The position numbers were made by a program, and so were the translations under genes. Under the pieces are notes generated by a model. The model was not told the DNA's origin and searched no databases. It worked only from the letters and a program-made list of their open reading frames with translations. A stretch of DNA of 64,000 bases from Candidatus Melainabacteria bacterium (GTDB lineage Bacteria; Cyanobacteriota; Vampirovibrionia; Vampirovibrionales; Vampirovibrionaceae). Below are positions 15,508 through 23,677 of this stretch, piece after piece (position 1 is the stretch's first letter; each line of letters opens with the position of its first letter). The stretch lies in the NCBI GenBank assembly GCA_050247195.1, contig JBFWUP010000007.1, forward strand, positions 56,836-120,835. The letters run 5' to 3'.

Positions 15508-18123
15508 TTAGTGAGAATAATCATCTTCAGGGGCGGTTGAAACCGCCTCCTGCTGCTGCGGCAGCAGCACCGGCAGCTCCACACCGTATATCTGCACCGG
15601 CTCCCGGATACCTTTGACAGGCACCTGCCCGAGATCCCGGAAATGGACATTCTCGCGGTCCTGCGGCCGGGTCAGCGTGTCATCCAGCACCTGCCGGCGG
15701 GTTTCATCGCTGACCACAATGCGCGAGCCCACTTTGCGCGTCAGCCCTTCCAGGCGGGAGCCCAGATTGACGGCCGCCCCCATGACCGTAAAACTTTTAA
15801 TATCTTCCGAGCCGAAGTTCCCCACAACCATATCCCCACTGCTCAGTCCCACGCCGATTTTGAGCGGGCTCAGCCCACGCGCCGCCCAGCTTTCGTTCAG
15901 TTCAGCCAGGTGGGCATGCATTTCCATGGCGGCCTGGCAGGCCCTGCGTGCATGGTCCGGAAAACCGACCGGAGCGCCGAAGAAGGCCATAATCGCATCG
16001 CCCATGTATTTGTCGTAGGTTCCCTGGTGTTTCAGTATCACGCGGGTCATGGCGGTAAAGAACTCATTGAGCTGGACCACCATGAGTTCGGGATCCACCG
16101 TCTCAAACTGGGCTGTAAAGCCCTGCAGATCGGCAAACAGCACCGTGAGGTTCTTCTTGGCGCCGGCCAGGTTTTGCATGCTGTTGGCCGGGCTGGCCAG
16201 TATCTGGTCCATCACCTGTGGGGACACGTATTTGGAGAACACCCGCGTCAGCTGATGCTTCTCACGGTCGTGGACATAATAGCGGTAAACGCCCCCACCG
16301 GCCGTCGCCGCCAGTAACAGCACACTCGGCGTGACAATGGGAATCCACCAGCCCTGCGCGGTGAACATCCACACATTGTAAAACCAGAAGCCCGCCAGCA
16401 GCAGGCCGGCCAGCGCAATACCCAGGTAAAACCGCCGGATACGGAGAACACCGAGCATCACAAAGCCCATCAGCAGGGCCACCACGCCGTAGACAATCCA
16501 GGTGGCTGCCGGCCGCACGAAGTTATGGTCGTTCAGCGTCATATCCAGCACCGTGGCGAGAATCTCCGGTCCGTAGACATTCCCGCCCATCGGTGTGCGG
16601 TGCATGTCGGTCATGGTGTCGCCGTAAATCACAATCTTGTCCCGGAAATCAATCGTTCCCTTGTCCGGGCGCCGGTAAACACGGTTGAGTGAGGAATTCA
16701 CCGGGTCGGGGTTCAGCCCTTCATCGGCCAGCAGCACATCCACGGCGGAAACAATGCGGTACAGATGCCCGTACCCCAGCCAGTCCGTTCCGGCTTCCAG
16801 GTCCACGCGCCGGAGTTCCGTCTCCGTGGCTGGCAAACCGGCTTTTTTGAGGATGGAAGCCACCAGCGCTCTGGGATGCCGCCAGTTGATCATCACCTCG
16901 CCATGGGCGTCCAGCGGCAGTGTTTTGCCGTTCAGGCTCACCTTCAGAGCGTCCCCGGCGTCATTCAGGCGCAGTGTGGCCTGGCTGCGTTCGTTCACCA
17001 GGGGGCGGATACCCAGATAGGGGTAAAACACGTCGCCATACGTCCGGTAAAACGGCGTGACGGTCCTCAGCTGGGAATCCCCCTCGTACTTCACGCTGGT
17101 CATCCCCACGCCGCGGGCAGCCTGAAAGAAAGGCATATGGACCGCCAGCGTGCTGCAGTAGGTGATGGGATCCAGCAGGGGGCTGGCGCTGAGCCGTTCC
17201 TGATCCCAGGTGAGAGGTGTACCGTGTGTGGCCAGCCAGTCCAGAAATTCCGGCTGGGCGGCAAAAGTCTGGCGGTAGATGTGGGTCAGGCAGTCCTCGG
17301 CATACAGGGCATCCATCGGGTTGCCAATCGCCGGCCGGCTGGCGAACACCTCACCCGGCTTCGGCTGGCGCCTCAGCCACCCTCTCCTGCGAGGAGAGGG
17401 TTTAGACGGGTTCAGCAGTTCGTAGTCCCAGGGGCCTCGGAACACGGCTGTGGGCAGGCCCAGCATGGCCGGGATATCAGACACTCCTTGCAGCCCAAGT
17501 GCGGGATAGTAGGCAGGAAGGCCCCAGCGGGCGCTCAGGGTCGCCTGGGCGCGCACATAGGGAAGCAGGCGGGTCATGAACAGGGCGCGGTTCAGCGCCG
17601 CTTGGTATGCCTGTGGTGTGGGGTTCTGGCGGGCCTTGTACTCAGCCAGGTTCAGCTCCGCGGATTCGGCAATATACACGTTCCCCGCCCGGCGGATAGC
17701 GTCTTCCAGCACAGCGTCCTCCTCCGGGGTGGACTCCCCGTTGAAGCTGATGTCCAGAATGACGGCGCGGGGGTGCTGGGCGCTGATGTGGTTGAGAATC
17801 TGAGCGACACGGCCGCGGGGCATCATGCGGCGGGGCAGCTGGTACTCCGGATGGTTGACCCCGTAGTCGAAGCTCTTGCGGTCAATGCCGACGATGACGA
17901 TGTCATCTGAGGGGATGAAGCGCTCGGAGCGCAGGAGCAGGCGGACATCCAGCATGCTCAGCTCCAGCCGGTGAAGGATGCCCGGGGCGTTCAGGGCGTA
18001 AAAGCACGCCATTACCAGCACAAGAACCACCCCCCAGAGGCAGATCACCAGGGGGGGGACGGAAACCGCGTGATCCGTCGCAGAGGTTGGTGTGGGCTTG
18101 GGTTGCGCCTGCCGGGAGGCCAT
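15508..18123 (-). CDS. CHASE2-sensor, membrane-anchored class III adenylate/guanylate cyclase
   Basis: C-terminal cyclase catalytic motifs (…FADLQGFT…YMGDAIMAFFGAP…); long periplasmic CHASE2-like region followed by TM helices. Confidence 0.85.
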   Translation of the reverse strand: MASRQAQPKPTPTSATDHAVSVPPLVICLWGVVLVLVMACFYALNAPGILHRLELSMLDVRLLLRSERFIPSDDIVIVGIDRKSFDYGVNHPEYQLPRRMMPRGRVAQILNHISAQHPRAVILDISFNGESTPEEDAVLEDAIRRAGNVYIAESAELNLAEYKARQNPTPQAYQAALNRALFMTRLLPYVRAQATLSARWGLPAYYPALGLQGVSDIPAMLGLPTAVFRGPWDYELLNPSKPSPRRRGWLRRQPKPGEVFASRPAIGNPMDALYAEDCLTHIYRQTFAAQPEFLDWLATHGTPLTWDQERLSASPLLDPITYCSTLAVHMPFFQAARGVGMTSVKYEGDSQLRTVTPFYRTYGDVFYPYLGIRPLVNERSQATLRLNDAGDALKVSLNGKTLPLDAHGEVMINWRHPRALVASILKKAGLPATETELRRVDLEAGTDWLGYGHLYRIVSAVDVLLADEGLNPDPVNSSLNRVYRRPDKGTIDFRDKIVIYGDTMTDMHRTPMGGNVYGPEILATVLDMTLNDHNFVRPAATWIVYGVVALLMGFVMLGVLRIRRFYLGIALAGLLLAGFWFYNVWMFTAQGWWIPIVTPSVLLLAATAGGGVYRYYVHDREKHQLTRVFSKYVSPQVMDQILASPANSMQNLAGAKKNLTVLFADLQGFTAQFETVDPELMVVQLNEFFTAMTRVILKHQGTYDKYMGDAIMAFFGAPVGFPDHARRACQAAMEMHAHLAELNESWAARGLSPLKIGVGLSSGDMVVGNFGSEDIKSFTVMGAAVNLGSRLEGLTRKVGSRIVVSDETRRQVLDDTLTRPQDRENVHFRDLGQVPVKGIREPVQIYGVELPVLLPQQQEAVSTAPEDDYSH
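17380..17400. repeat. REP-like perfect palindrome CCCTCTCC-TGCGA-GGAGAGGG embedded in the cyclase CDS
   Basis: Same arm sequence as the intergenic palindromes at 41.9 kb and 59.28 kb; encodes a low-complexity RRRGWLRR linker. Confidence 0.4.
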
Positions 18124-18203: not shown

Positions 18204-18665
18204 TTACCCGTCCGACTTGAGGAGCTTACTGACGCCGCTGGCCATGAGCGTGCCGAGGGCGAAACCGCCGAGTGGGATGTAACTGCCGGCAAAGCGCCCG
18301 AAAGGCTTGCCGAGGTGAAAGCCAGGCAGCAGTTTGCGACCCAGAGCAAACCCGGCGCCGGCCACCTCCCAGATGACGATGTTTTTGGCGCCCTGGCCGG
18401 CGGTGGCTTTGGTGGCGGCGATTAGTGGACTGTTACCCTCCAGTTCCGCCTGACGATAAGCGCTGACGCCCGCGCGGGCGGTATCCAGACCCATGAGGCT
18501 GAGGCCGAAGAGCTGACCGAGGCCCATGCCGCTGACTTTGCCGAGCCCTTTTGCGTTGGGATCCCAAATGGTTTTCAGCGGCTCCACATTCTGGCGCCAC
18601 ACGGTCTCTTTCAGGTACTCCCGCCAGCCATGGTTGAATATCGTTTCGCCATTTCGTAGTGTTTT
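18204..18665. repeat. left arm of a ~460-bp inverted repeat (3' half of paralog A)
   Basis: About 95% nucleotide identity to the reverse complement of 22866..23324. Confidence 0.75.
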
Positions 18666-19109
18666 GAGAATATTAGAAGGTTTGAGTTCCCTTGTTATAG
18701 TTGCAAAATTCCATCTGACAAGCCTTCCGTAGTGTGTTGGGTTTCTCAATTGAGAAAAGCTTAAATCGCGTTTGTGTCTTAGTCCGAAAAGCCCTGTGTA
18801 ACTGTATGGATGAAAATTCATAGCACGTGCTCTTAATGAGGGGGAATCCCCCAAGCGAGGGTTATGGACTTGATCGAAGGCGCTAATAAACTGATTTCTC
18901 TTATTTAGTTCAACGGCGCTCCGTCCTGTTGCCCCATCGATGAATTTTCCGGCTGCCACTCGGCTCGTCCAAATGGCGAAGCGTTTCTCGAAAACGTCCT
19001 TCAATGTTTTATTGGGGCTAAACGGCACAATCTCCCGCACTGGCGGAAGCTTTACAGACCTCTGATCTGCAAACGTATGCAGTTGAATTGGAGTGCCCTG
19101 AATGCTCAA
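18204..19109 (-). CDS. hypothetical protein, paralog A of an inverted pair (variable N-terminal half, conserved Gly-rich C-terminal half)
   Basis: 301 aa; TTG start supported by protein-level conservation with paralog B from residue 3; C-terminal ~150 aa about 97% identical to 22419..23324. Confidence 0.65.
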   Translation of the reverse strand: MSIQGTPIQLHTFADQRSVKLPPVREIVPFSPNKTLKDVFEKRFAIWTSRVAAGKFIDGATGRSAVELNKRNQFISAFDQVHNPRLGDSPSLRARAMNFHPYSYTGLFGLRHKRDLSFSQLRNPTHYGRLVRWNFATITRELKPSNILKTLRNGETIFNHGWREYLKETVWRQNVEPLKTIWDPNAKGLGKVSGMGLGQLFGLSLMGLDTARAGVSAYRQAELEGNSPLIAATKATAGQGAKNIVIWEVAGAGFALGRKLLPGFHLGKPFGRFAGSYIPLGGFALGTLMASGVSKLLKSDG

Positions 19110-19265
19110 TGTTTACCCTTTGGAATAGCCTCCCCTGTGTGCTTAAAAACAATATTTTTGTCGTAAAGGTGCTCATGTAACGTTTCTGTAACGACATTGC
19201 ACAATTACTCATTTGGTGACTATATTTGGGTTTGAGAATGACACCCCCAACCAGGATATGGAATC

Positions 19266-19547
19266 ATGCTATCCGCTCTACAGACAGGTCTATACAGCTT
19301 CTTGAGAGGAATCAGAGAAGGTGAAGACGGTGAGGAACCAAAGCCATCAACACCAAGGCCAAAATTGAGCTTCGCAGGTGAAGGTGATAACGGACTACCT
19401 CCGGTGCGTCCTGTTAAACCAGAACCCAATTACAAGTTGACATTTTCTGGCCCAGAGGGTGACGACGATGATGGTCCTGAACCCAAGCTGATGTTCGCCG
19501 GCAGCCTGCCCGCCGACGCCGGACGCCGGCTGAGCGTGCTGGGCTAA
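19266..19547 (+). CDS. small acidic repeat protein with three P-x-(K/Y)-KL-(S/T/M)-F-(A/S)-G repeats
   Basis: 93 aa; repeats PKLSFAGEGD / YKLTFSGPEGD / PKLMFAGSLPAD; SD AGGA 9 nt upstream. Confidence 0.55.
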   Translation: MLSALQTGLYSFLRGIREGEDGEEPKPSTPRPKLSFAGEGDNGLPPVRPVKPEPNYKLTFSGPEGDDDDGPEPKLMFAGSLPADAGRRLSVLG

Positions 19548-19565
19548 GCCCGCATGGCCAAAAAA

Positions 19566-19588
19566 GAAGCGCCCTTCGGGGCGCTTCC
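19566..19588. terminator. bidirectional rho-independent terminator
   Basis: GAAGCGCCC-TTCG-GGGCGCTTC perfect 9-bp stem; A5 upstream on the plus strand gives T5 after the minus-strand gene. Confidence 0.6.
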
Positions 19589-19592
19589 TAAA

Positions 19593-19871
19593 TTACTGGT
19601 TACCTGGTAGACCAGGAAGGTCCCCACCGCCGGAGGTGCCACCGGAATAGATGGGAACGCGTTGGCCGAGGATGAATTCGGAGCGGGTGTCAAAAAAGCT
19701 GGCCAGTCCGTTCATGCCGTTGGATTCAAACCGATCCGATAGGGCGCTGAAGCGATTGGCGCGGGTGGTCAGGCGGTTGGAAATAGCTGTATTCTGATCC
19801 GTGGTGTTGCTGGCGGCGCGCTGGGTATCCAGCGCCAGAATGAACGCGTTAAAGCGACTGAAATTGATCAT
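19593..19871 (-). CDS. small peptide gene, member 1 of the FG / C-terminal GLPGLPGNQ family
   Basis: 92 aa ending …GGGDLPGLPGNQ-stop; own SD and terminator. Confidence 0.65.
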   Translation of the reverse strand: MINFSRFNAFILALDTQRAASNTTDQNTAISNRLTTRANRFSALSDRFESNGMNGLASFFDTRSEFILGQRVPIYSGGTSGGGDLPGLPGNQ

Positions 19872-19967
19872 CTCAGGATGTCCTCTCTCTCTATTGTCGT
19901 GCTCTCTTCGATAGCGTATAGAGATATAAAAACAATCCGAAGGGATATCTTGATCGTTTATGACAAA

Positions 19968-19990
19968 AAATAAAGCGCCCTTTCGAGCGC
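19968..19990 (-). terminator. rho-independent terminator candidate
   Basis: AAAGCGC…GCGCTTT stem followed by a T-run on the minus strand, just past the stop of 20001..20171. Confidence 0.5.
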
Positions 19991-20000
19991 TTTATCTTAT

Positions 20001-20171
20001 TTATTGATTTCCTGGTAAACCAGGCAAGCCACCACCAGACCCGCCACCGGAGTTTCCACAATTACCATGTCCGGCGTATACGGGCCTACCACCATTCTGT
20101 TTGTTACGCGCCTGATTGGCCCGGTTCTGACCAAAACTTGCAGCCGAAGAATATCCAATGCTCATTGACAT
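20001..20171 (-). CDS. small peptide gene, member 2 of the FG / C-terminal GLPGLPGNQ family (not in the ORF track)
   Basis: Hand-translated 56 aa MSMSIGYSSAASFGQNRANQARNKQNGGRPVYAGHGNCGNSGGGSGGGLPGLPGNQ; SD GGAGAT 7 nt upstream; terminator downstream. Confidence 0.6.
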   Translation of the reverse strand: MSMSIGYSSAASFGQNRANQARNKQNGGRPVYAGHGNCGNSGGGSGGGLPGLPGNQ

Positions 20172-20282
20172 ACCAATATCTCCTCATTTCGTGTGTTCTA
20201 ACAACCAACCTTGATGGTTATATAAAAACAAGCAAATAAATTTCGGTGTTACTTCATTTACATAAATATAAAAAAACGGCAC

Positions 20283-20306
20283 CGATATACGATGCCGTTT
20301 AAACAA
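20283..20306 (-). terminator. rho-independent terminator candidate
   Basis: AACGGCA…TGCCGTT stem; T-run on the minus strand (A7 at 20272-20278 on the plus strand). Confidence 0.45.
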
Positions 20307-20318
20307 ACTGAACTTTGA

Positions 20319-20564
20319 CTATTGGCAACCAGGAAGACCTGGGAGGCAAGGTTGTGTTGTTGTCGTCACAACAGTCGTCGCGGGTGGCTTGCCATGGTGT
20401 CTTGGGGGTCTGTTTCCACGGCCAGGTCTGTTGCAGGCTTCAGCTACACCCGCTCCTAAAGTACCCACTGTCAACAATGCTCCCACCCCGGCTGCTGCCA
20501 TTTTAGAACGAGCACTGCGAAAAGCACCAAACTCAATGGAAGGGGTGTTCATCCCTACGTTCAT
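20319..20564 (-). CDS. small peptide gene, member 3 of the family (C-terminal LPGLPGCQ)
   Basis: 81 aa with a hydrophobic AAAGVGALLTVGTLGAGVAEA segment, a poly-Thr stretch, and …QPCLPGLPGCQ-stop; SD AGGAG 8 nt upstream. Confidence 0.6.
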   Translation of the reverse strand: MNVGMNTPSIEFGAFRSARSKMAAAGVGALLTVGTLGAGVAEACNRPGRGNRPPRHHGKPPATTVVTTTTQPCLPGLPGCQ

Positions 20565-20983
20565 AGGTCAACTCCTGTCTATATTTTCGTGTAACTACAA
20601 TATGGATCGTGAAGACCCACGCTGCTGCTTCTCTGAAGAACCACTTAAGTATGAAAACCACCACGGCAGCGCCATTGTATCTAACGGGAAAAGCCCGGGT
20701 CGGTCAAGGGTAAAACAGCCAACCGGTGCGTATTGAAAGGTAATGCACCCTATATTGCCATATGTCATCAGGGTTAATCATGCCCGATGCCGCTGAAACC
20801 CCCGTATTCTTTCGGTTTTGCCCGGTTGTGGCTTCATAATGCTTAACAAACCTATATATTCCGTGTGTCCCCGCCGAAAACCCATGGTGAACGGATATGG
20901 CCATGGTTAGGCTGGGCGCCCCGTGATAGGCGGGGGCCACCCTTCAGGAAGAAGCACTCAACGTCCAGAGAGGAAAGACGACG

Positions 20984-22030
20984 ATGCGCTGGAATGATTT
21001 GATGATGACGACCCGCATGGGCGCGCGCCCGCTGCTGAGACCCGGTGTACAGGCCGGGGTGACCGCCATGGAGTACGCCCTGCCCATTGGCCTGGTGGTG
21101 GTGCTCACCATTCCCGCGCTGGGCGCCCTGGGCGATATGACCAACGGGATGTTTGGCGGCATGCTGGGCATCAGCCAGCCTGCCCCGGCGCAGGAGATTG
21201 CCAGCGCCGAAGAAGTGATTGGCGCGCCGTCTCAGGCCGTTGACTCCGGCGATGTGTCCACCGAAACGCCCAGTGACCCGGCCGATGTGGGTGCAACCCC
21301 GGCCGACCCCACCCCCGCACCAGCCACCTCACCCCCGCAGTCGGTCCCCAGTAATGTGACGGTGTCCTTTGACCCGGCGACCGGGATGATTAAATACACC
21401 GGCTATGACGCCGCCGGCAACAAGATCGAAACCACCGACGCCAGCGGCACCGAACTCACGCTCTACATGGCGCAGATGTTGGAAAACCTAGCGGCCACAG
21501 CAACAAAAGACAACGGCCAACCGCTGCCGCCAGCGATTATTGGTTATATTAAAGACTTGGCTAATAAGGGCTATGATTTAAGCTCAAAAGAAAAAACTGT
21601 TGTTGATAATAATACGCTTGAAATTAGAAATACAATCGATTTAGATGCTCTCTATGGTCCAGCGGCCCAAAGAACTGCTGAACAAAAAGCTGAGATAAAT
21701 GCTCAATTTCAAGATATAACCGATTTCACTTATTCGCTTTATTACATGAAACAAAGCTATGACGCATTGATGAGTTATGTTGGGAATAAAAATGGTTATA
21801 CTGAATTAAAATCCCAGATAAGTTTGTATTCTGGAGTAATTAGCAGTGTAGGAATTCAGAATTTTCATATGCAGCAAACTGCTAACCAAACGACAGGGTC
21901 ATCCACTTTTTATAATTCATATGGTTTTGGAAGCACTGTTAACACCTCAGCCGTGAGCTTAGATATGTCCCCCATCGTCACCCACATTGAGTCCGGGAAT
22001 ATCGAACAAACGGCCAACCAGGTGCCGTAA
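20984..22030 (+). CDS. protein with a Flp/Fap-pilin-like class III signal-peptide N-terminus and a low-GC-encoded C-terminal domain
   Basis: N-terminus …RPGVQAG|VTAMEYALPIGLVVVLTIPALGALG matches the Flp prepilin G/xxxxEY plus hydrophobic-stretch motif; SD GAGAGGA; the 3' half (21.5-22.0 kb) is about 35% GC. Confidence 0.6.
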   Translation: MRWNDLMMTTRMGARPLLRPGVQAGVTAMEYALPIGLVVVLTIPALGALGDMTNGMFGGMLGISQPAPAQEIASAEEVIGAPSQAVDSGDVSTETPSDPADVGATPADPTPAPATSPPQSVPSNVTVSFDPATGMIKYTGYDAAGNKIETTDASGTELTLYMAQMLENLAATATKDNGQPLPPAIIGYIKDLANKGYDLSSKEKTVVDNNTLEIRNTIDLDALYGPAAQRTAEQKAEINAQFQDITDFTYSLYYMKQSYDALMSYVGNKNGYTELKSQISLYSGVISSVGIQNFHMQQTANQTTGSSTFYNSYGFGSTVNTSAVSLDMSPIVTHIESGNIEQTANQVP

Positions 22031-22051
22031 GGCCGGGTAAAGCAATACCAC

Positions 22052-22082
22052 AGAGCGCTCCGGTTCCGCCGGGGCGCTTTGG
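22052..22082 (+). terminator. terminator candidate after the Flp-like gene
   Basis: GCGCTCCGG-TTCCG-CCGGGGCGC imperfect stem followed by TTTGG. Confidence 0.4.
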
Positions 22083-22418
22083 TCGTTGGGGGGCAGCTCG
22101 CAGCGTCAGGCCAGGGCGTTCAGGCGTCGGCCTGCGTCGACGGGCGGGTTGGCGGTAAATTGGAGGCTGGGTTCAGGTCCATCTTTTCCTTCATCCCCCT
22201 CACCACCTGAAAAAAAAGGAGGTGCAAGCATTAAAGAGATATTATTGAGACTTGTCATAAGATCACCTTCAGTGTTGGGGGGGAACTGTCCTAAACCACA
22301 ATATAGAACTGACTTGACTTTTAGTCGCAGAGTGTTAATAACTCGTTACATGAACGGTGATAATGGTCTGCATGCGTTTTCATGCGGTTAATGGGGGTAC
22401 CATCTCAGGAGAGTTCAT

Positions 22419-23324
22419 TTGGGGGTTCAAGGAACAACCACCGTATTTACCTATGGTCAGCAAGGCAATCCTCATATGTTGCCGTCTGTCCGGGAGATTG
22501 TGCCGTTTAGTCCGAACAAAACTATCGAGGACGTTTTCGAGAAACGCTTCGCCATCTGGACAAGTCGAGTCGCCGCTGGGAAATTTGTGGATAATTTTAC
22601 AGGTAGGGGTTTGATTGATTTTGAAAAAAGGAATTCTTTCATAAAACAGTATGACAAGATTCACAATCCGACTTTGTCAAATTTCCCAGACCTTGCGGAA
22701 AAGGCTCTCGGCTTCAATCCTCACAGTTATTCTGGCCTTTTCAGTATTCGAAGCAAGCGAGATATGACCTTCTCTCACCTGAAAAGTCCGAAGTCCTATG
22801 TGAGAAAAGTACGGTGGAATTTTAAACCGCTTGGCCGACATTTATCTCCGAAGAATATTGTCAGTAACGTTCGATCTGGTCAGTCAATTTTTGCTTTCGG
22901 TTGGCGGGAGTACCTGAAAGAGACCGTGTGGCGCCAGAATGTGGAGCCACTGAAAACCATCTGGGATCCCAACGCAAAAGGGCTCGGCAAAGTCAGCGGC
23001 ATGGGCCTCGGTCAGCTCTTCGGCCTCAGCCTCATGGGTCTGGATACCGCCCGGGCGGGCGTCAGCGCTTATCGTCAGGCGGAGCTGGAAGGAAACAGTC
23101 CACTGGTGGCGGCCACCAAAGCCACCGCCAGCCAGGGCGCCAAAAACATCGTCATCTGGGAGGTCGCCGGCGCCGGATTTGCTCTGGGTCGCAAACTGCT
23201 GCCGGGCTTTCACCTCGGCAAGCCTTTCGGGCGCTTTGCAGGCAGTTACATCCCGCTTGGCGGCTTCGCCCTCGGCACACTCATGGCCAGCGGCGTCAGC
23301 AAGCTCCTCAAGCCGGACGACTGA
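22419..23324 (+). CDS. hypothetical protein, paralog B of the inverted pair
   Basis: 301 aa; TTG start with SD AGGAGA 5 nt upstream; C-terminal half near-identical to paralog A; the middle of the gene is AT-rich. Confidence 0.65.
   Translation: MGVQGTTTVFTYGQQGNPHMLPSVREIVPFSPNKTIEDVFEKRFAIWTSRVAAGKFVDNFTGRGLIDFEKRNSFIKQYDKIHNPTLSNFPDLAEKALGFNPHSYSGLFSIRSKRDMTFSHLKSPKSYVRKVRWNFKPLGRHLSPKNIVSNVRSGQSIFAFGWREYLKETVWRQNVEPLKTIWDPNAKGLGKVSGMGLGQLFGLSLMGLDTARAGVSAYRQAELEGNSPLVAATKATASQGAKNIVIWEVAGAGFALGRKLLPGFHLGKPFGRFAGSYIPLGGFALGTLMASGVSKLLKPDD
22866..23324. repeat. right arm of the ~460-bp inverted repeat (3' half of paralog B)
   Basis: Reverse complement is about 95% identical to 18204..18665. 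Confidence 0.75.
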
Positions 23325-23677
23325 GATTCAGGCAATGAGGTTCAGCGCCTGCGTGTTCAGGTCACTCGCAACGCCCATCAACCCGTTGCCCCCAAAGCCC
23401 ATCGCGCCGGCCGGAGCGGACGAACCCCCGCCAAACGTCCCGAAGGTGATGGCGATGTTCTGGCCAATCAGCTTGCGCAGCCCGCCCAGAGAGGCGGATG
23501 TGGCGTTGAGGCTGAGGCCATTGATCATGCGGAAGTGTTCTCTCTCATGCTCTGAGTGAATCAACACTTAGTCTACGGCCCGATTACCGGGTGCGCGCGA
23601 CCGGCGTGATAATTCTTAACAGACCGGCCTGCTTGGCTTACAATGGCGGGGCATCCTGAGAGAAAGGAACCAACACC

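What the first reader, a model, noticed from the sequence alone, without database searches (positions are those of the whole stretch)
20984..22030. Flp/Fap-pilin-like class III signal peptide on a 348-aa protein whose 3' half is strongly AT-rich
The N-terminus …LLRPGVQAG-VTAMEYALPIGLVVVLTIPALGALG fits the Flp prepilin processing motif: Gly, then xxxxEY, then a hydrophobic stretch. Flp pilins are 50-80 aa, but here the motif is followed by about 290 further residues, like a TadE/TadF-type minor pilin or an adhesin fused to a pilin anchor. No tad/cpa secretion genes are present in the window. The C-terminal coding region (about 21.5-22.0 kb) drops to about 33-38% GC against a ~60% background, which argues for horizontal acquisition or a diversifying cassette.
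Basis: partly seen in the sequence, partly recalled or inferred. Interest (0 to 1): 0.65.

Follow-up and report, generated by a model that had tools for sequence, protein, structure and literature searches.

The report
Long Flp-type pilin with AT-rich patch
The gene is real: it fuses a complete Tad/Flp-type pilus subunit, through a floppy linker, to a roughly 225-residue domain of unknown fold, belongs to a small uncharacterised family known only from non-photosynthetic cyanobacteria (Melainabacteria), and carries an internal 411-base patch with foreign codon usage.

Summary
ORF 20984..22030 (+) encodes 348 aa with G25|VTAMEY plus a hydrophobic helix. GC falls from 0.65-0.68 to 0.335-0.40.

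The drop is sharper than described. GC3 is 0.78 (codons 1-182), 0.25 (codons 183-319, window 21530-21940) and 0.73 again (codons 320-348).

A full HMMER scan found 22 homologs of 268-366 aa with the same architecture. Named ones come from Melainabacteria, Vampirovibrio or Cyanobacteria MAGs. The architecture is a Flp-type class III signal peptide, a variable S/T/P linker, and a conserved beta-hairpin plus helical bundle with no Pfam or PDB match. The Glu at +5 is invariant; Gly at -1 and Tyr at +6 are at least 90% conserved. The family profile hits the solved Caulobacter Tad pilin (E=6e-6).

Relatives occur in tandem arrays, next to CHASE2 cyclases in two contigs, and once next to a TadG-like gene. 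No tad machinery lies in this window.

The AT-rich patch encodes the family's own conserved domain, so it is not a foreign fusion. It most likely arose by recombination with a low-GC homolog; no donor was found.

The gene sits in a 5.3-kb mosaic-GC island bounded by a 421-nt, 95% inverted repeat.

Verdict: a modular Flp pilin, a new variant of a known kind, of moderate interest.

The parts
20984..22030 (+). p348 coding sequence (348 aa plus stop): a modular Flp-type prepilin
   Evidence: ORF list. 100% match to the NCBI MAG protein 'Flp family type IVb pilin [Candidatus Melainabacteria bacterium]'. 22 full-length homologs.
20968..20976 (+). Shine-Dalgarno-like GAGAGGAAA, about 10 nt before the ATG
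   Evidence: Read from the sequence; inference only.
20984..21058 (+). Leader peptide, codons 1-25, basic, ending in Gly25 (predicted prepilin-peptidase cleavage after G25)
   Evidence: Sequence. G25 is conserved in at least 90% of the family. Cleavage itself is inferred.
21059..21163 (+). Flp pilin module, codons 26-60 (VTAMEY plus a hydrophobic helix with the conserved IPAL..LG motif)
   Evidence: Pfam PF04964 at aa 23-58, E=0.0014, below threshold. Family profile vs 8u1k_A and 8u2b_A, E=6e-6 and 2.3e-5. AF2 helix 28-60.
21164..21343 (+). S/T/P/A-rich disordered linker, codons 61-120
   Evidence: AF2 pLDDT below 50 for residues 59-106. Length and sequence vary across the family alignment.
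21344..22027 (+). Family-specific C-terminal domain, codons 121-348: a 3-strand sheet carrying the YDPxTGxI-type motif (FDPATGMI in p348), then a helical bundle
   Evidence: Conserved columns in A1. AF2 strands 124-150, helices 155-298 with pLDDT 84-96. No Pfam/NCBIfam hit. No PDB or BFVD fold match.
21530..21940 (+). Internal AT-rich patch with foreign codon usage (codons 183-319, GC3 0.25)
   Evidence: Change-point analysis against 14 reference genes. GC profile. Identical in the independent Logan contig.
21522..21535 (.). GC-rich palindrome CGCTGCCGCCAGCG exactly at the 5' edge of the AT-rich patch
   Evidence: Picked up as a hairpin on both strands by the terminator scan. Significance unknown.
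22053..22082 (.). GC-rich hairpin between the convergent genes p348 and p50 (likely bidirectional terminator)
   Evidence: Read from the sequence; inference only.
18209..18629 (.). Left arm of the inverted repeat (3' half of p301L)
   Evidence: the repeat finder I1: 421 nt, 95% complementary to 22899-23319.
22899..23319 (.). Right arm of the inverted repeat (3' half of p301R)
   Evidence: the repeat finder I1. The Logan contig L001 ends 32 nt inside each arm.
18204..19109 (-). p301L, orphan 301-aa protein with a Gly/Ala-rich hydrophobic C-terminal half; paralog of p301R
   Evidence: ORF. 74% aa identity to p301R. Only two homologs, both in another Melainabacteria MAG. AT-rich centre.
22419..23324 (+). 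p301R, paralog of p301L
19266..19547 (+). p93, acidic G/P-rich small protein with KLxF(A/S)G repeats; C-terminus shared with p50
   Evidence: 62% identity over 34 aa with p50.
22106..22258 (-). p50, short paralog of p93, divergent from p301R
   Evidence: Called as a gene on the Logan contig.
19593..20564 (-). Three small orphan genes (92, 56 and 81 aa) ending in LPGLPGNQ/LPGLPGCQ, each with its own terminator hairpin
   Evidence: (D3, D4).
15508..18123 (-). CHASE2 adenylate/guanylate cyclase flanking the island; its orthologs lie directly downstream of p348-family genes in two relatives
   Evidence: Pfam CHASE2 plus Guanylate_cyc. Contexts of P0004 and P0019. 38% identity over 92 aa to the L010 CHASE2 N-terminus, E=1e-19.

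Best explanation
p348 is a functional gene for a modular Flp-type (Tad, type IVc) pilin.

Shown:
- It belongs to a conserved family of about 270-370-aa proteins. The members that carry an organism name come from Melainabacteria/Vampirovibrionia MAGs.
- Each member has three parts: (i) a basic leader ending in Gly, followed by xxxxEY and a roughly 35-residue helix homologous to the entire mature Tad pilin of Caulobacter; (ii) a variable, disordered S/T/P-rich linker; (iii) a conserved beta-hairpin plus helical-bundle domain with no known relative.
- Codons 183-319 have a codon usage foreign to this genome, although they encode the family's own conserved domain.

Inferred:
- The leader is removed after Gly25 by a TadV/CpaA-type (or PilD-type) prepilin peptidase.
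- The Flp helix anchors the protein in the inner membrane and is then inserted into a Tad-like filament, either along its body or at its tip.
- Because the C-terminus of a Tad pilin lies on the filament surface, the linker would let the roughly 225-residue domain hang outside the fibre as a displayed binding or sensing module.
- The recurrent neighbouring CHASE2 cyclase suggests a link to cyclic-nucleotide signalling, for example surface sensing.
- The AT-rich patch is best read as homologous replacement of the core of the display domain by DNA from a lower-GC family member, with breakpoints in conserved motifs. This makes p348 a mosaic gene inside a mosaic, inverted-repeat-bounded 5.3-kb island.
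For: Real gene: only the annotated frame is open through the AT-rich patch (P of no stop 1.3e-5). An independent assembly gives the identical sequence.

Family: 24 proteins at E<=1e-3 in 1.84 billion representatives, aligned end to end.

Class III motif: E30 invariant; G25 and Y31 at least 90% conserved.

Homology to real Tad pilins:
- The family profile hits 8u1k_A (E=6e-6) and 8u2b_A (E=2.3e-5) over chain residues 2-40 of 45.
- Pfam Flp_Fap is the only Pfam family hit, in 7 of 23 members.
- Short bona fide Flp pilins in classical tad loci of Chloroflexia share GQ[ST]LxEYAL..AIP.

C-terminus on the filament surface: PMC10710030.

Linker and domain: AF2 gives a helix at 28-60, disorder at 59-106, and a bundle at 155-298 with pLDDT 84-96.

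Pilin-like genomics:
- Tandem arrays of 2 to at least 5 paralogs.
- A TadG-like gene (PF13400 weak, PF09977) plus three small genes lie upstream of P0004.
- A CHASE2 cyclase lies directly downstream of P0004 and of P0019 and flanks the island here.

Mosaic patch:
- GC3 runs 0.78 / 0.25 / 0.73, against 0.67-0.77 in 14 reference genes.
- The nearest relatives of the flanks (P0004) differ from those of the patch (P0020, P0011, P0007).
- A Vampirovibrio homolog shows a GC3 drop at the homologous position.
- Low-GC lineages (33-43% GC) carry family genes.
Against: - No prepilin peptidase, CpaF/TadA, TadB/C, secretin, TadE/F or short Flp gene is present in the 64-kb window, nor in 3.6 kb beyond its right end. 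The rest of the genome could not be searched.
- p348 alone scores below Pfam's Flp threshold (18.8 vs 32.2 bits) and does not hit the solved pilins on its own.
- The helix carries two prolines, one of them (P34) unusual for Flp.
- No experiment shows cleavage or polymerisation for any family member.
- The long linker could equally serve a membrane-anchored, non-filament protein.
- For the patch, no donor was found. All family identities in the patch are only 22-32% (apart from one 36-residue local match at 44%), so the incongruence test is weak.
- The unrelated p301 genes keep an AT-rich centre in four copies from two genomes although the protein is conserved there. This hints at a local process other than one-off transfer.
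Confidence: 0.55

Rival explanations
1. p348 is a membrane-anchored or Sec-secreted envelope protein. The N-terminus would be only a signal anchor or an ordinary signal peptide that happens to resemble Flp. The protein would never enter a filament and might act as a periplasmic or surface partner of the CHASE2 cyclase.
For: No type IV filament machinery lies in the window. The Pfam score is sub-threshold. An A-L-G|D site after the hydrophobic stretch could serve signal peptidase I (sequence). A 60-residue linker is typical of tethered envelope proteins. CHASE2 cyclase synteny is seen in the window and two relatives, out of eight contexts examined.
Against: An ordinary signal peptide has no reason to keep Gly-1, Glu+5 and Tyr+6 (nearly) invariant across proteins that are otherwise 22-30% identical. 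The profile match covers almost the whole mature Tad pilin, not just a hydrophobic run. One relative sits beside a TadG-like gene.
Confidence: 0.2
2. p348 is a minor pilin or pseudopilin of the TadE/TadF/TadG (CpaJ/K/L) kind. It would prime or cap a Tad pilus at the tip rather than decorate its body.
For: The size (about 300 aa) and the 'pilin module plus extra domain' layout resemble CpaL/TadG (PMC12607857). P0004 lies about 1.5 kb downstream of a Tad/Tad_C gene and three small genes. The AF2 model has a three-strand sheet after the linker.
Against: There is no PF07811 (TadE) or PF13400 (Tad) hit at E<=1. The N-module aligns with major Flp pilins. Tandem arrays of up to five or more near-equal paralogs are unlike single-copy tip pilins. 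The sheet is separated from the helix by a disordered linker instead of packing on it.
Confidence: 0.2
3. The AT-rich patch is not a transfer. Local AT-richness would be maintained in place, by selection (slow translation, transcriptional silencing, an internal regulatory site) or by a regional mutational bias acting on this island.
For: All four known p301 genes, from two genomes, keep an AT-rich centre (GC 0.28-0.43) where the protein is conserved. P0019 drops in GC3 at the homologous codon. Family genes in L013 show a milder 5'-to-3' GC decline. The island as a whole alternates between high and low GC.
Against: The switch from GC3 0.78 to 0.25 and back happens within a few codons on each side, which is the signature of recombination breakpoints. 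Two family genes in L004 show no drop. No mechanism is known that would hold GC3 at 0.25 in part of one gene.
Confidence: 0.25
4. The locus is a programmed variation system: pilE/pilS-type cassettes, a diversity-generating retroelement, or an invertible segment that switches p348.
For: A 421-nt, 95% inverted repeat brackets the 4.3-kb segment that contains p348. The Logan assembly breaks inside both arms. Flipping the segment would restore the p348-to-cyclase co-orientation seen in relatives.
Against: The window holds no second copy of any part of p348, no template repeat and no recombinase or reverse transcriptase among the scanned ORFs. Inversion would leave all genes intact, because the arms are the near-identical 3' halves of the two p301 genes. 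An assembly break at a repeat is expected anyway.
Confidence: 0.08

Closest known systems
Flp/Fap major pilins of Tad (type IVc) pili, e.g. Caulobacter crescentus PilA (PDB 8U1K, 8U2B); Pfam PF04964
   Same: A basic leader ending in Gly, Glu at +5 and Tyr at +6, and a single hydrophobic helix with a polar C-terminal end. The family profile aligns with residues 2-40 of the 45-residue mature pilin.
   Different: Flp pilins stop there (40-70 aa, no globular domain; PMC10710030). p348 continues with a 60-residue linker and a roughly 225-residue domain. It scores below the Pfam threshold, and no tad locus is nearby.
Modular type IV pilins (Streptococcus sanguinis PilB/PilC; ETEC CofB), as defined by Raynaud et al. 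2021 (PMC8179133)
   Same: A functional module grafted through a linker onto an N-terminal pilin module. That paper notes that a flexible linker could allow a location in the filament body.
   Different: Those pilins use the IPR012902-type (T4a/T4b) module with its own globular head. Here the chassis is a head-less Flp helix, and the added module has no recognisable fold or function.
TadG / CpaL, TadE and TadF (CpaJ, CpaK) minor pilins of Tad systems (PMC12607857)
   Same: Large Tad-associated proteins with a G/A-x4-E/F cleavage consensus and an extra domain. A TadG-like gene neighbours the homolog P0004.
   Different: p348 has no TadE/Tad_N signature, no vWA domain and a different N-module. 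It occurs in multi-copy tandem arrays.
Mosaic pilin and surface-protein genes produced by homologous recombination between diverged alleles (general knowledge, e.g. neisserial pilE)
   Same: A constant N-terminal assembly module, and an exposed part that carries a sharply bounded segment of different ancestry.
   Different: No silent cassettes or repeats were found here. The evidence is compositional only.

Membership tests
Flp/Fap pilin (PF04964; Tad major pilin) | Class III signal peptide: Gly at -1, Glu at +5, Tyr at +6, then about 20 hydrophobic residues | tested here: met
   G25|VTAMEY31 plus ALPIGLVVVLTIPALGALG. E30 invariant; G25 and Y31 at least 90% conserved in 23 family members.
Flp/Fap pilin (PF04964; Tad major pilin) | Score above the curated Pfam gathering threshold | tested here: not met
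   18.8 bits vs 32.2, E=0.0014. 7 of 23 members reach E<=0.01; best 4.4e-4.
Flp/Fap pilin (PF04964; Tad major pilin) | Sequence homology of the mature module to experimentally solved Tad pilins | tested here: met
   Family profile vs 8u1k_A E=6e-6 and 8u2b_A E=2.3e-5, covering chain residues 2-40 (8u1k_A) and 2-41 (8u2b_A) of 45. The single sequence alone gives no hit.
Flp/Fap pilin (PF04964; Tad major pilin) | Short mature protein (about 40-70 aa) with no further domain | tested here: not met
   The predicted mature length is 323 aa, with a linker and a folded domain.
Flp/Fap pilin (PF04964; Tad major pilin) | Encoded with tad/cpa machinery (TadV/CpaA, TadA/CpaF, TadB/C, secretin) | tested here: not met
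   None among 40 scanned ORFs of the window. No second class III motif.
Flp/Fap pilin (PF04964; Tad major pilin) | Cleavage by an A24 prepilin peptidase and polymerisation into a filament | not testable with these tools
   Needs biochemistry or the complete genome.
TadE/TadF/TadG pseudopilins | TadE-like (PF07811) or Tad N-terminal (PF13400) signature | tested here: not met
   No such hit at E<=1 in p348, and none at E<=0.01 in any of the 23 members.
TadE/TadF/TadG pseudopilins | Position inside a tad locus next to other pseudopilin genes | tested here: inconclusive
   Not in this window. The homolog P0004 lies about 1.5 kb downstream of a PF13400 (weak)/PF09977 gene and three small genes. Other contexts lack them.
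Modular type IV pilins (Raynaud et al. 2021) | N-terminal pilin module with a class III signal peptide, joined by a linker to an extra module | tested here: met
   The module is Flp-type rather than IPR012902-type.
Modular type IV pilins (Raynaud et al. 2021) | The extra module is a recognisable functional domain | tested here: not met
   No Pfam, NCBIfam, PHROG or PADLOC family. Best Foldseek PDB E=0.24; BFVD TM<=0.26.
Cassette- or DGR-based variation loci | Silent partial copies or a template repeat of the variable segment nearby | tested here: not met
   No second copy of the patch or of the 5' half in the window.
Horizontally derived / recombinant segment | Codon usage departs sharply from the host genome, with discrete boundaries | tested here: met
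   GC3 0.25 vs 0.67-0.77 in reference genes; boundaries at 21530 and 21940.
Horizontally derived / recombinant segment | An identified donor lineage or clear phylogenetic incongruence | tested here: inconclusive
   Nearest relatives differ between patch and flanks, but identities are mostly 22-32%. No close homolog in 1.84 billion representatives. None in viral or JGI metagenome scans.

The most novel reading that the evidence does not exclude
The inverted-repeat-bounded 5.3-kb island would be a module-exchange hotspot. Exposed parts of envelope proteins (the display domain of a Tad-type pilin, the centres of the two p301 genes, the N-parts of p93/p50) would be repeatedly overwritten by DNA from lower-GC relatives, while assembly modules stay native. 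This would give Melainabacteria a recombination-driven way to vary a decorated Tad-like fibre that signals through the adjacent CHASE2 cyclase. Inversion across the 421-nt arms might couple or uncouple p348 from the cyclase operon.
Probability: 0.1. Interest if true: 0.7.

Novelty: new variant of a known kind. Interest (0 to 1): 0.45.

Why it matters
Tad/Flp pilins are known for being bare helices with no globular head, and it is unclear how such fibres gain binding specificity. A family in which a complete Flp module is tethered to a conserved roughly 225-residue domain would be a head-less pilin turned into a display scaffold.

This extends the 'modular pilin' idea to the Tad branch. It also gives a first handle on surface appendages of Melainabacteria, a largely uncultured sister group of photosynthetic cyanobacteria. 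The recurrent CHASE2 cyclase neighbour offers a testable link between such a fibre and cyclic-nucleotide signalling.

The sharply bounded codon-usage patch is a clean example of an intragenic mosaic. It could be used to study recombination between lineages of very different GC content.

None of this is shown experimentally. The N-terminal Flp resemblance is already in the public annotation.

Tried and rejected
- Word-index homolog searches found only the protein itself or two entries. The family appeared only with the full HMMER scan.
- The search for related loci with the family alignments failed for lack of a conserved 7-10-column stretch.
- A degenerate DNA pattern in genome contigs returned only two ordinary short Flp pilins from Chloroflexia.
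- Both metagenome scans found nothing. Two viral scans found nothing.
- The AF2 model of p301 was useless (pLDDT 38.6), so no fold search was made for it.
- Pfam, NCBIfam, PADLOC and PHROGs gave nothing for the eight other island ORFs. Rfam gave nothing above threshold.
- I considered that Gly-rich 'xFAG' or 'PG' small proteins next to family arrays elsewhere (L013) are homologs of p93 or p92. BLASTP does not support it.
- An assembly chimera was rejected. A phage or defence-island origin has no support.
- Extending the contig to look for tad genes gave only 3.6 kb beyond the window's right end, with none.
- Literature on Vampirovibrio mentions type IV pili genes but neither Tad nor Flp.
Full report
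**1.

ORF 20984..22030 (+) encodes 348 aa beginning MRWNDLMMTTRMGARPLLRPGVQAG|VTAMEYALPIGLVVVLTIPALGALG. A GAGG ribosome-binding-like site lies about 10 nt upstream, and a GC-rich hairpin lies downstream (sequence).

GC in 200-nt windows is 0.645-0.68 over 20.9-21.4 kb and 0.335-0.405 over 21.5-22.0 kb. The window mean is 0.573.

The effect is on codon choice, not amino-acid content. A two-change-point fit on third positions gives three segments (LLR 48.7):

| Codons | Window coordinates | GC3 |
|---|---|---|
| 1-182 | 20984-21529 | 0.78 |
| 183-319 | 21530-21940 | 0.25 |
| 320-348 | 21941-22027 | 0.73 |

Fourteen Pfam-supported genes of the window have GC3 0.67-0.77. None has a 120-codon stretch below 0.62.

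Only the annotated frame is open in the patch. The other frames carry 6-17 stops, and P(no stop) is 1.3e-5. An independently assembled Logan contig is base-for-base identical to window 18597-22931. The patch is therefore real and coding, not a chimera.

**2. What the protein is**

The public record names it 'MAG: Flp family type IVb pilin [Candidatus Melainabacteria bacterium]'. The word-index search found nothing else.

A full HMMER scan of 1.84 billion representatives found 23 further proteins at E<=1e-3. Twenty-two of them are 268-366 aa long; several align over nearly the whole length, most over at least the N-terminal half. The 23rd, P0021 (1500 aa), was left out of the alignment.

Named members come from 'Vampirovibrio sp.' and 'Cyanobacteria bacterium' MAGs. 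IMG calls two of them 'Flp pilus assembly pilin Flp'.

The alignment shows a fixed architecture:
- a short basic leader ending in Gly;
- xxxxEY and a hydrophobic helix with a conserved (A/T)IPAL..LG;
- a variable S/T/P/A/G-rich stretch;
- a conserved domain with the motifs YDPxTGxI, TS.EGT..LA..L..LA, DG.P.P, I..LAN.G..LA..E, Y..L, YSG.IS.I...NF and sP.VT.

Glu30 is invariant. Gly25 and Tyr31 are present in at least 90% of members.

Evidence that the N-terminal module is a Flp pilin:
- Pfam sees only Flp_Fap. For p348 this is aa 23-58, E=0.0014, 18.8 bits against a threshold of 32.2. Seven of 23 members hit at E<=0.01.
- The family profile hits the two solved Caulobacter Tad pilins, 8u1k_A (E=6e-6) and 8u2b_A (E=2.3e-5). 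The match covers residues 2-40 of the 45-residue mature pilin.
- p348 alone does not reach these pilins.
- Ordinary 67-68-aa Flp pilins in classical tad loci of two Chloroflexia MAGs share GQ[ST]LxEYAL...AIP.

AlphaFold2 with the family alignment gives mean pLDDT 68.8 and pTM 0.57:

| Residues | Predicted element | pLDDT |
|---|---|---|
| 28-60 | helix | 56-81 by 10-residue block (peak about 80 at residues 31-50) |
| 59-106 | disordered | below 50 |
| 124-150 | three-strand sheet | about 70 |
| 155-298 | helical bundle | 84-96 (one 10-residue block at 62) |

The domain has no Pfam or NCBIfam family and no fold match. Best Foldseek PDB E is 0.24; BFVD TM is at most 0.26.

**3. Context of the family**

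Relatives often sit in tandem arrays:

| Locus | Paralogs in array |
|---|---|
| L013 | at least 5 |
| L006 | 3 |
| L012 | 3 |
| L004 | 2 |

- P0004 is preceded by three small genes and a 379-aa Tad (weak)/Tad_C (TadG-like) gene. It is followed directly by a CHASE2 adenylate/guanylate cyclase.
- P0019 (Vampirovibrio sp.) is also followed by a CHASE2 gene. The N-terminus of that gene is 38% identical to the cyclase at window 15508..18123 (E=1e-19).
- Here the cyclase flanks the island but points away from p348.
- Three other contexts (L004, L007, L016) have no cyclase close by.
- In this window no type IV filament gene was found among 40 ORFs. There is no second class III motif, and 3.6 kb beyond the right end adds nothing.
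- Whether the genome has a TadV/CpaF set could not be tested.

**4. How it most likely works**

Shown: p348 contains a full Flp pilin module, a flexible linker and a conserved folded domain.

From the literature:
- In the Caulobacter Tad pilus the 45-residue pilin has no globular domain, and its polar C-terminus forms the filament surface (PMC10710030).
- Modular pilins carry grafted modules and could sit in the filament body if the linker is flexible (PMC8179133).
- TadG/CpaL is a Tad minor pilin fused to a vWA domain and implicated in surface sensing (PMC12607857).

Inferred:
- The leader is cleaved after Gly25.
- The helix enters a Tad-like fibre.
- The roughly 225-residue domain is displayed on a 60-residue tether.
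- A functional link to the CHASE2 cyclase is possible.

I put about 0.5 on the filament-display step and about 0.85 on 'real gene, member of a Flp-derived family'.

**5. The AT-rich patch**

The patch encodes the conserved core of the family domain, with pLDDT up to 96. It is therefore not a foreign fusion partner.

Its edges fall just after the conserved DG.P.P motif (21530) and just before the conserved C-terminal sP.VT motif (21940). The upstream edge coincides with the palindrome CGCTGCCGCCAGCG.

Evidence bearing on its origin:
- Flanks and patch have different nearest relatives: P0004 for the flanks, and P0020, P0011 and P0007 for the patch. Identities are low.
- A Vampirovibrio homolog drops from GC3 0.57 to 0.33 at the homologous codon.
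- Two homologs in L004 show no drop.
- Low-GC carriers of the family exist; L012 has 33-43% GC.
- No second copy, silent cassette or template repeat exists in the window.

Best reading: homologous replacement by a low-GC allele. A locally maintained AT bias is a serious rival, for the reason given in section 6.

**6. The surroundings**

p348 lies in a 5.3-kb island (18.2-23.6 kb) between the cyclase and leuC, in which high and low GC alternate.

- **Boundaries.** The island is bounded by two 301-aa orphan paralogs in inverted orientation. Their 3' halves form a 421-nt, 95% inverted repeat. Their 5' halves are only 50-60% identical over most of their length (about 80% at nt 61-150) and are AT-rich.
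- **p301 relatives.** The only relatives, two genes in another Melainabacteria MAG, show the same AT-rich centre although the protein is conserved there.
- **Other island genes.** These are a pair of acidic G/P-rich proteins (p93, p50), three small proteins ending in LPGLPG(N/C)Q, and a Gly-rich 66-aa ORF. None has any database family.
- **Possible inversion.** Flipping the repeat-bounded segment would restore the p348-to-cyclase co-orientation of relatives. There is no evidence that it flips.

**7. Verdict**

The finding is real. The Flp reading is right in substance and already reflected in the public annotation.

New here are the family and its architecture, the tandem arrays, the cyclase synteny, and the exact nature of the GC anomaly.

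It is a new variant of a known kind (a modular pilin on a Flp chassis). It is moderately interesting, has no experimental support, and leaves one open question: the AT-rich patches.

Noticed in passing
window 19593-19871, 20001-20171, 20319-20564 (all - strand): Three small orphan genes (92, 56 and 81 aa) end in LPGLPGNQ or LPGLPGCQ. The DNA encoding the motif is a 6+2+6 palindrome (CCTGGT-NN-ACCAGG). In the third gene the two halves are swapped but still palindromic. Each gene has its own terminator hairpin. The first two are a 405-nt tandem duplication that includes the terminator.
   Followed up: partly
window 18204-19109 (-) and 22419-23324 (+); L002 10001-10867; L003 10001-10981: The p301 family has four known members in two Melainabacteria MAGs. 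It has a conserved Gly/Ala-rich hydrophobic C-terminal half. In every copy the central third is AT-rich (GC 0.28-0.43) although the protein is conserved there. The AF2 model was unusable (pLDDT 38.6).
   Followed up: partly
window 19266-19547 (+) and 22106-22258 (-); L003 10965-11246 and 11527-11736; L002 10851-11054: Small acidic Gly/Pro-rich proteins with K(L/I)xF(A/S)G repeats accompany p301 genes in both genomes. p93 and p50 share the C-terminus P(A/V)DAGRRL.
   Followed up: partly
window 23328-23528 (-): A Gly-rich 66-aa ORF begins MINGLSLNATSASLGG, which vaguely resembles a double-glycine leader. It lies just outside the right repeat arm.
   Followed up: no
L003 11382-11543: A duplicated fragment of the p301 C-terminus (53 aa) lies about 400 nt downstream of the full gene, next to a second small G/D-rich ORF. 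This suggests recurrent local duplication of this module.
   Followed up: no
window 30642-37662: Three large consecutive orphan ORFs (912, 1015 and 419 aa) have no Pfam hit and show strong AT skew (0.18-0.28). The first contains another intragenic low-GC stretch at 32651-33450.
   Followed up: no
window 21371-21451 (p348 aa 130-156): There is a weak Pfam RHS_repeat hit (E=0.013, below threshold) on the conserved YDPxTGxI hairpin (FDPATGMI in p348). The family's beta-hairpin resembles a single YD repeat.
   Followed up: no
window 18597 and 22931 (ends of Logan contig L001): The public short-read assembly breaks 32 nt inside each inverted-repeat arm. The orientation of the 4.3-kb inner segment therefore rests on the MAG assembler alone.
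   Followed up: partly
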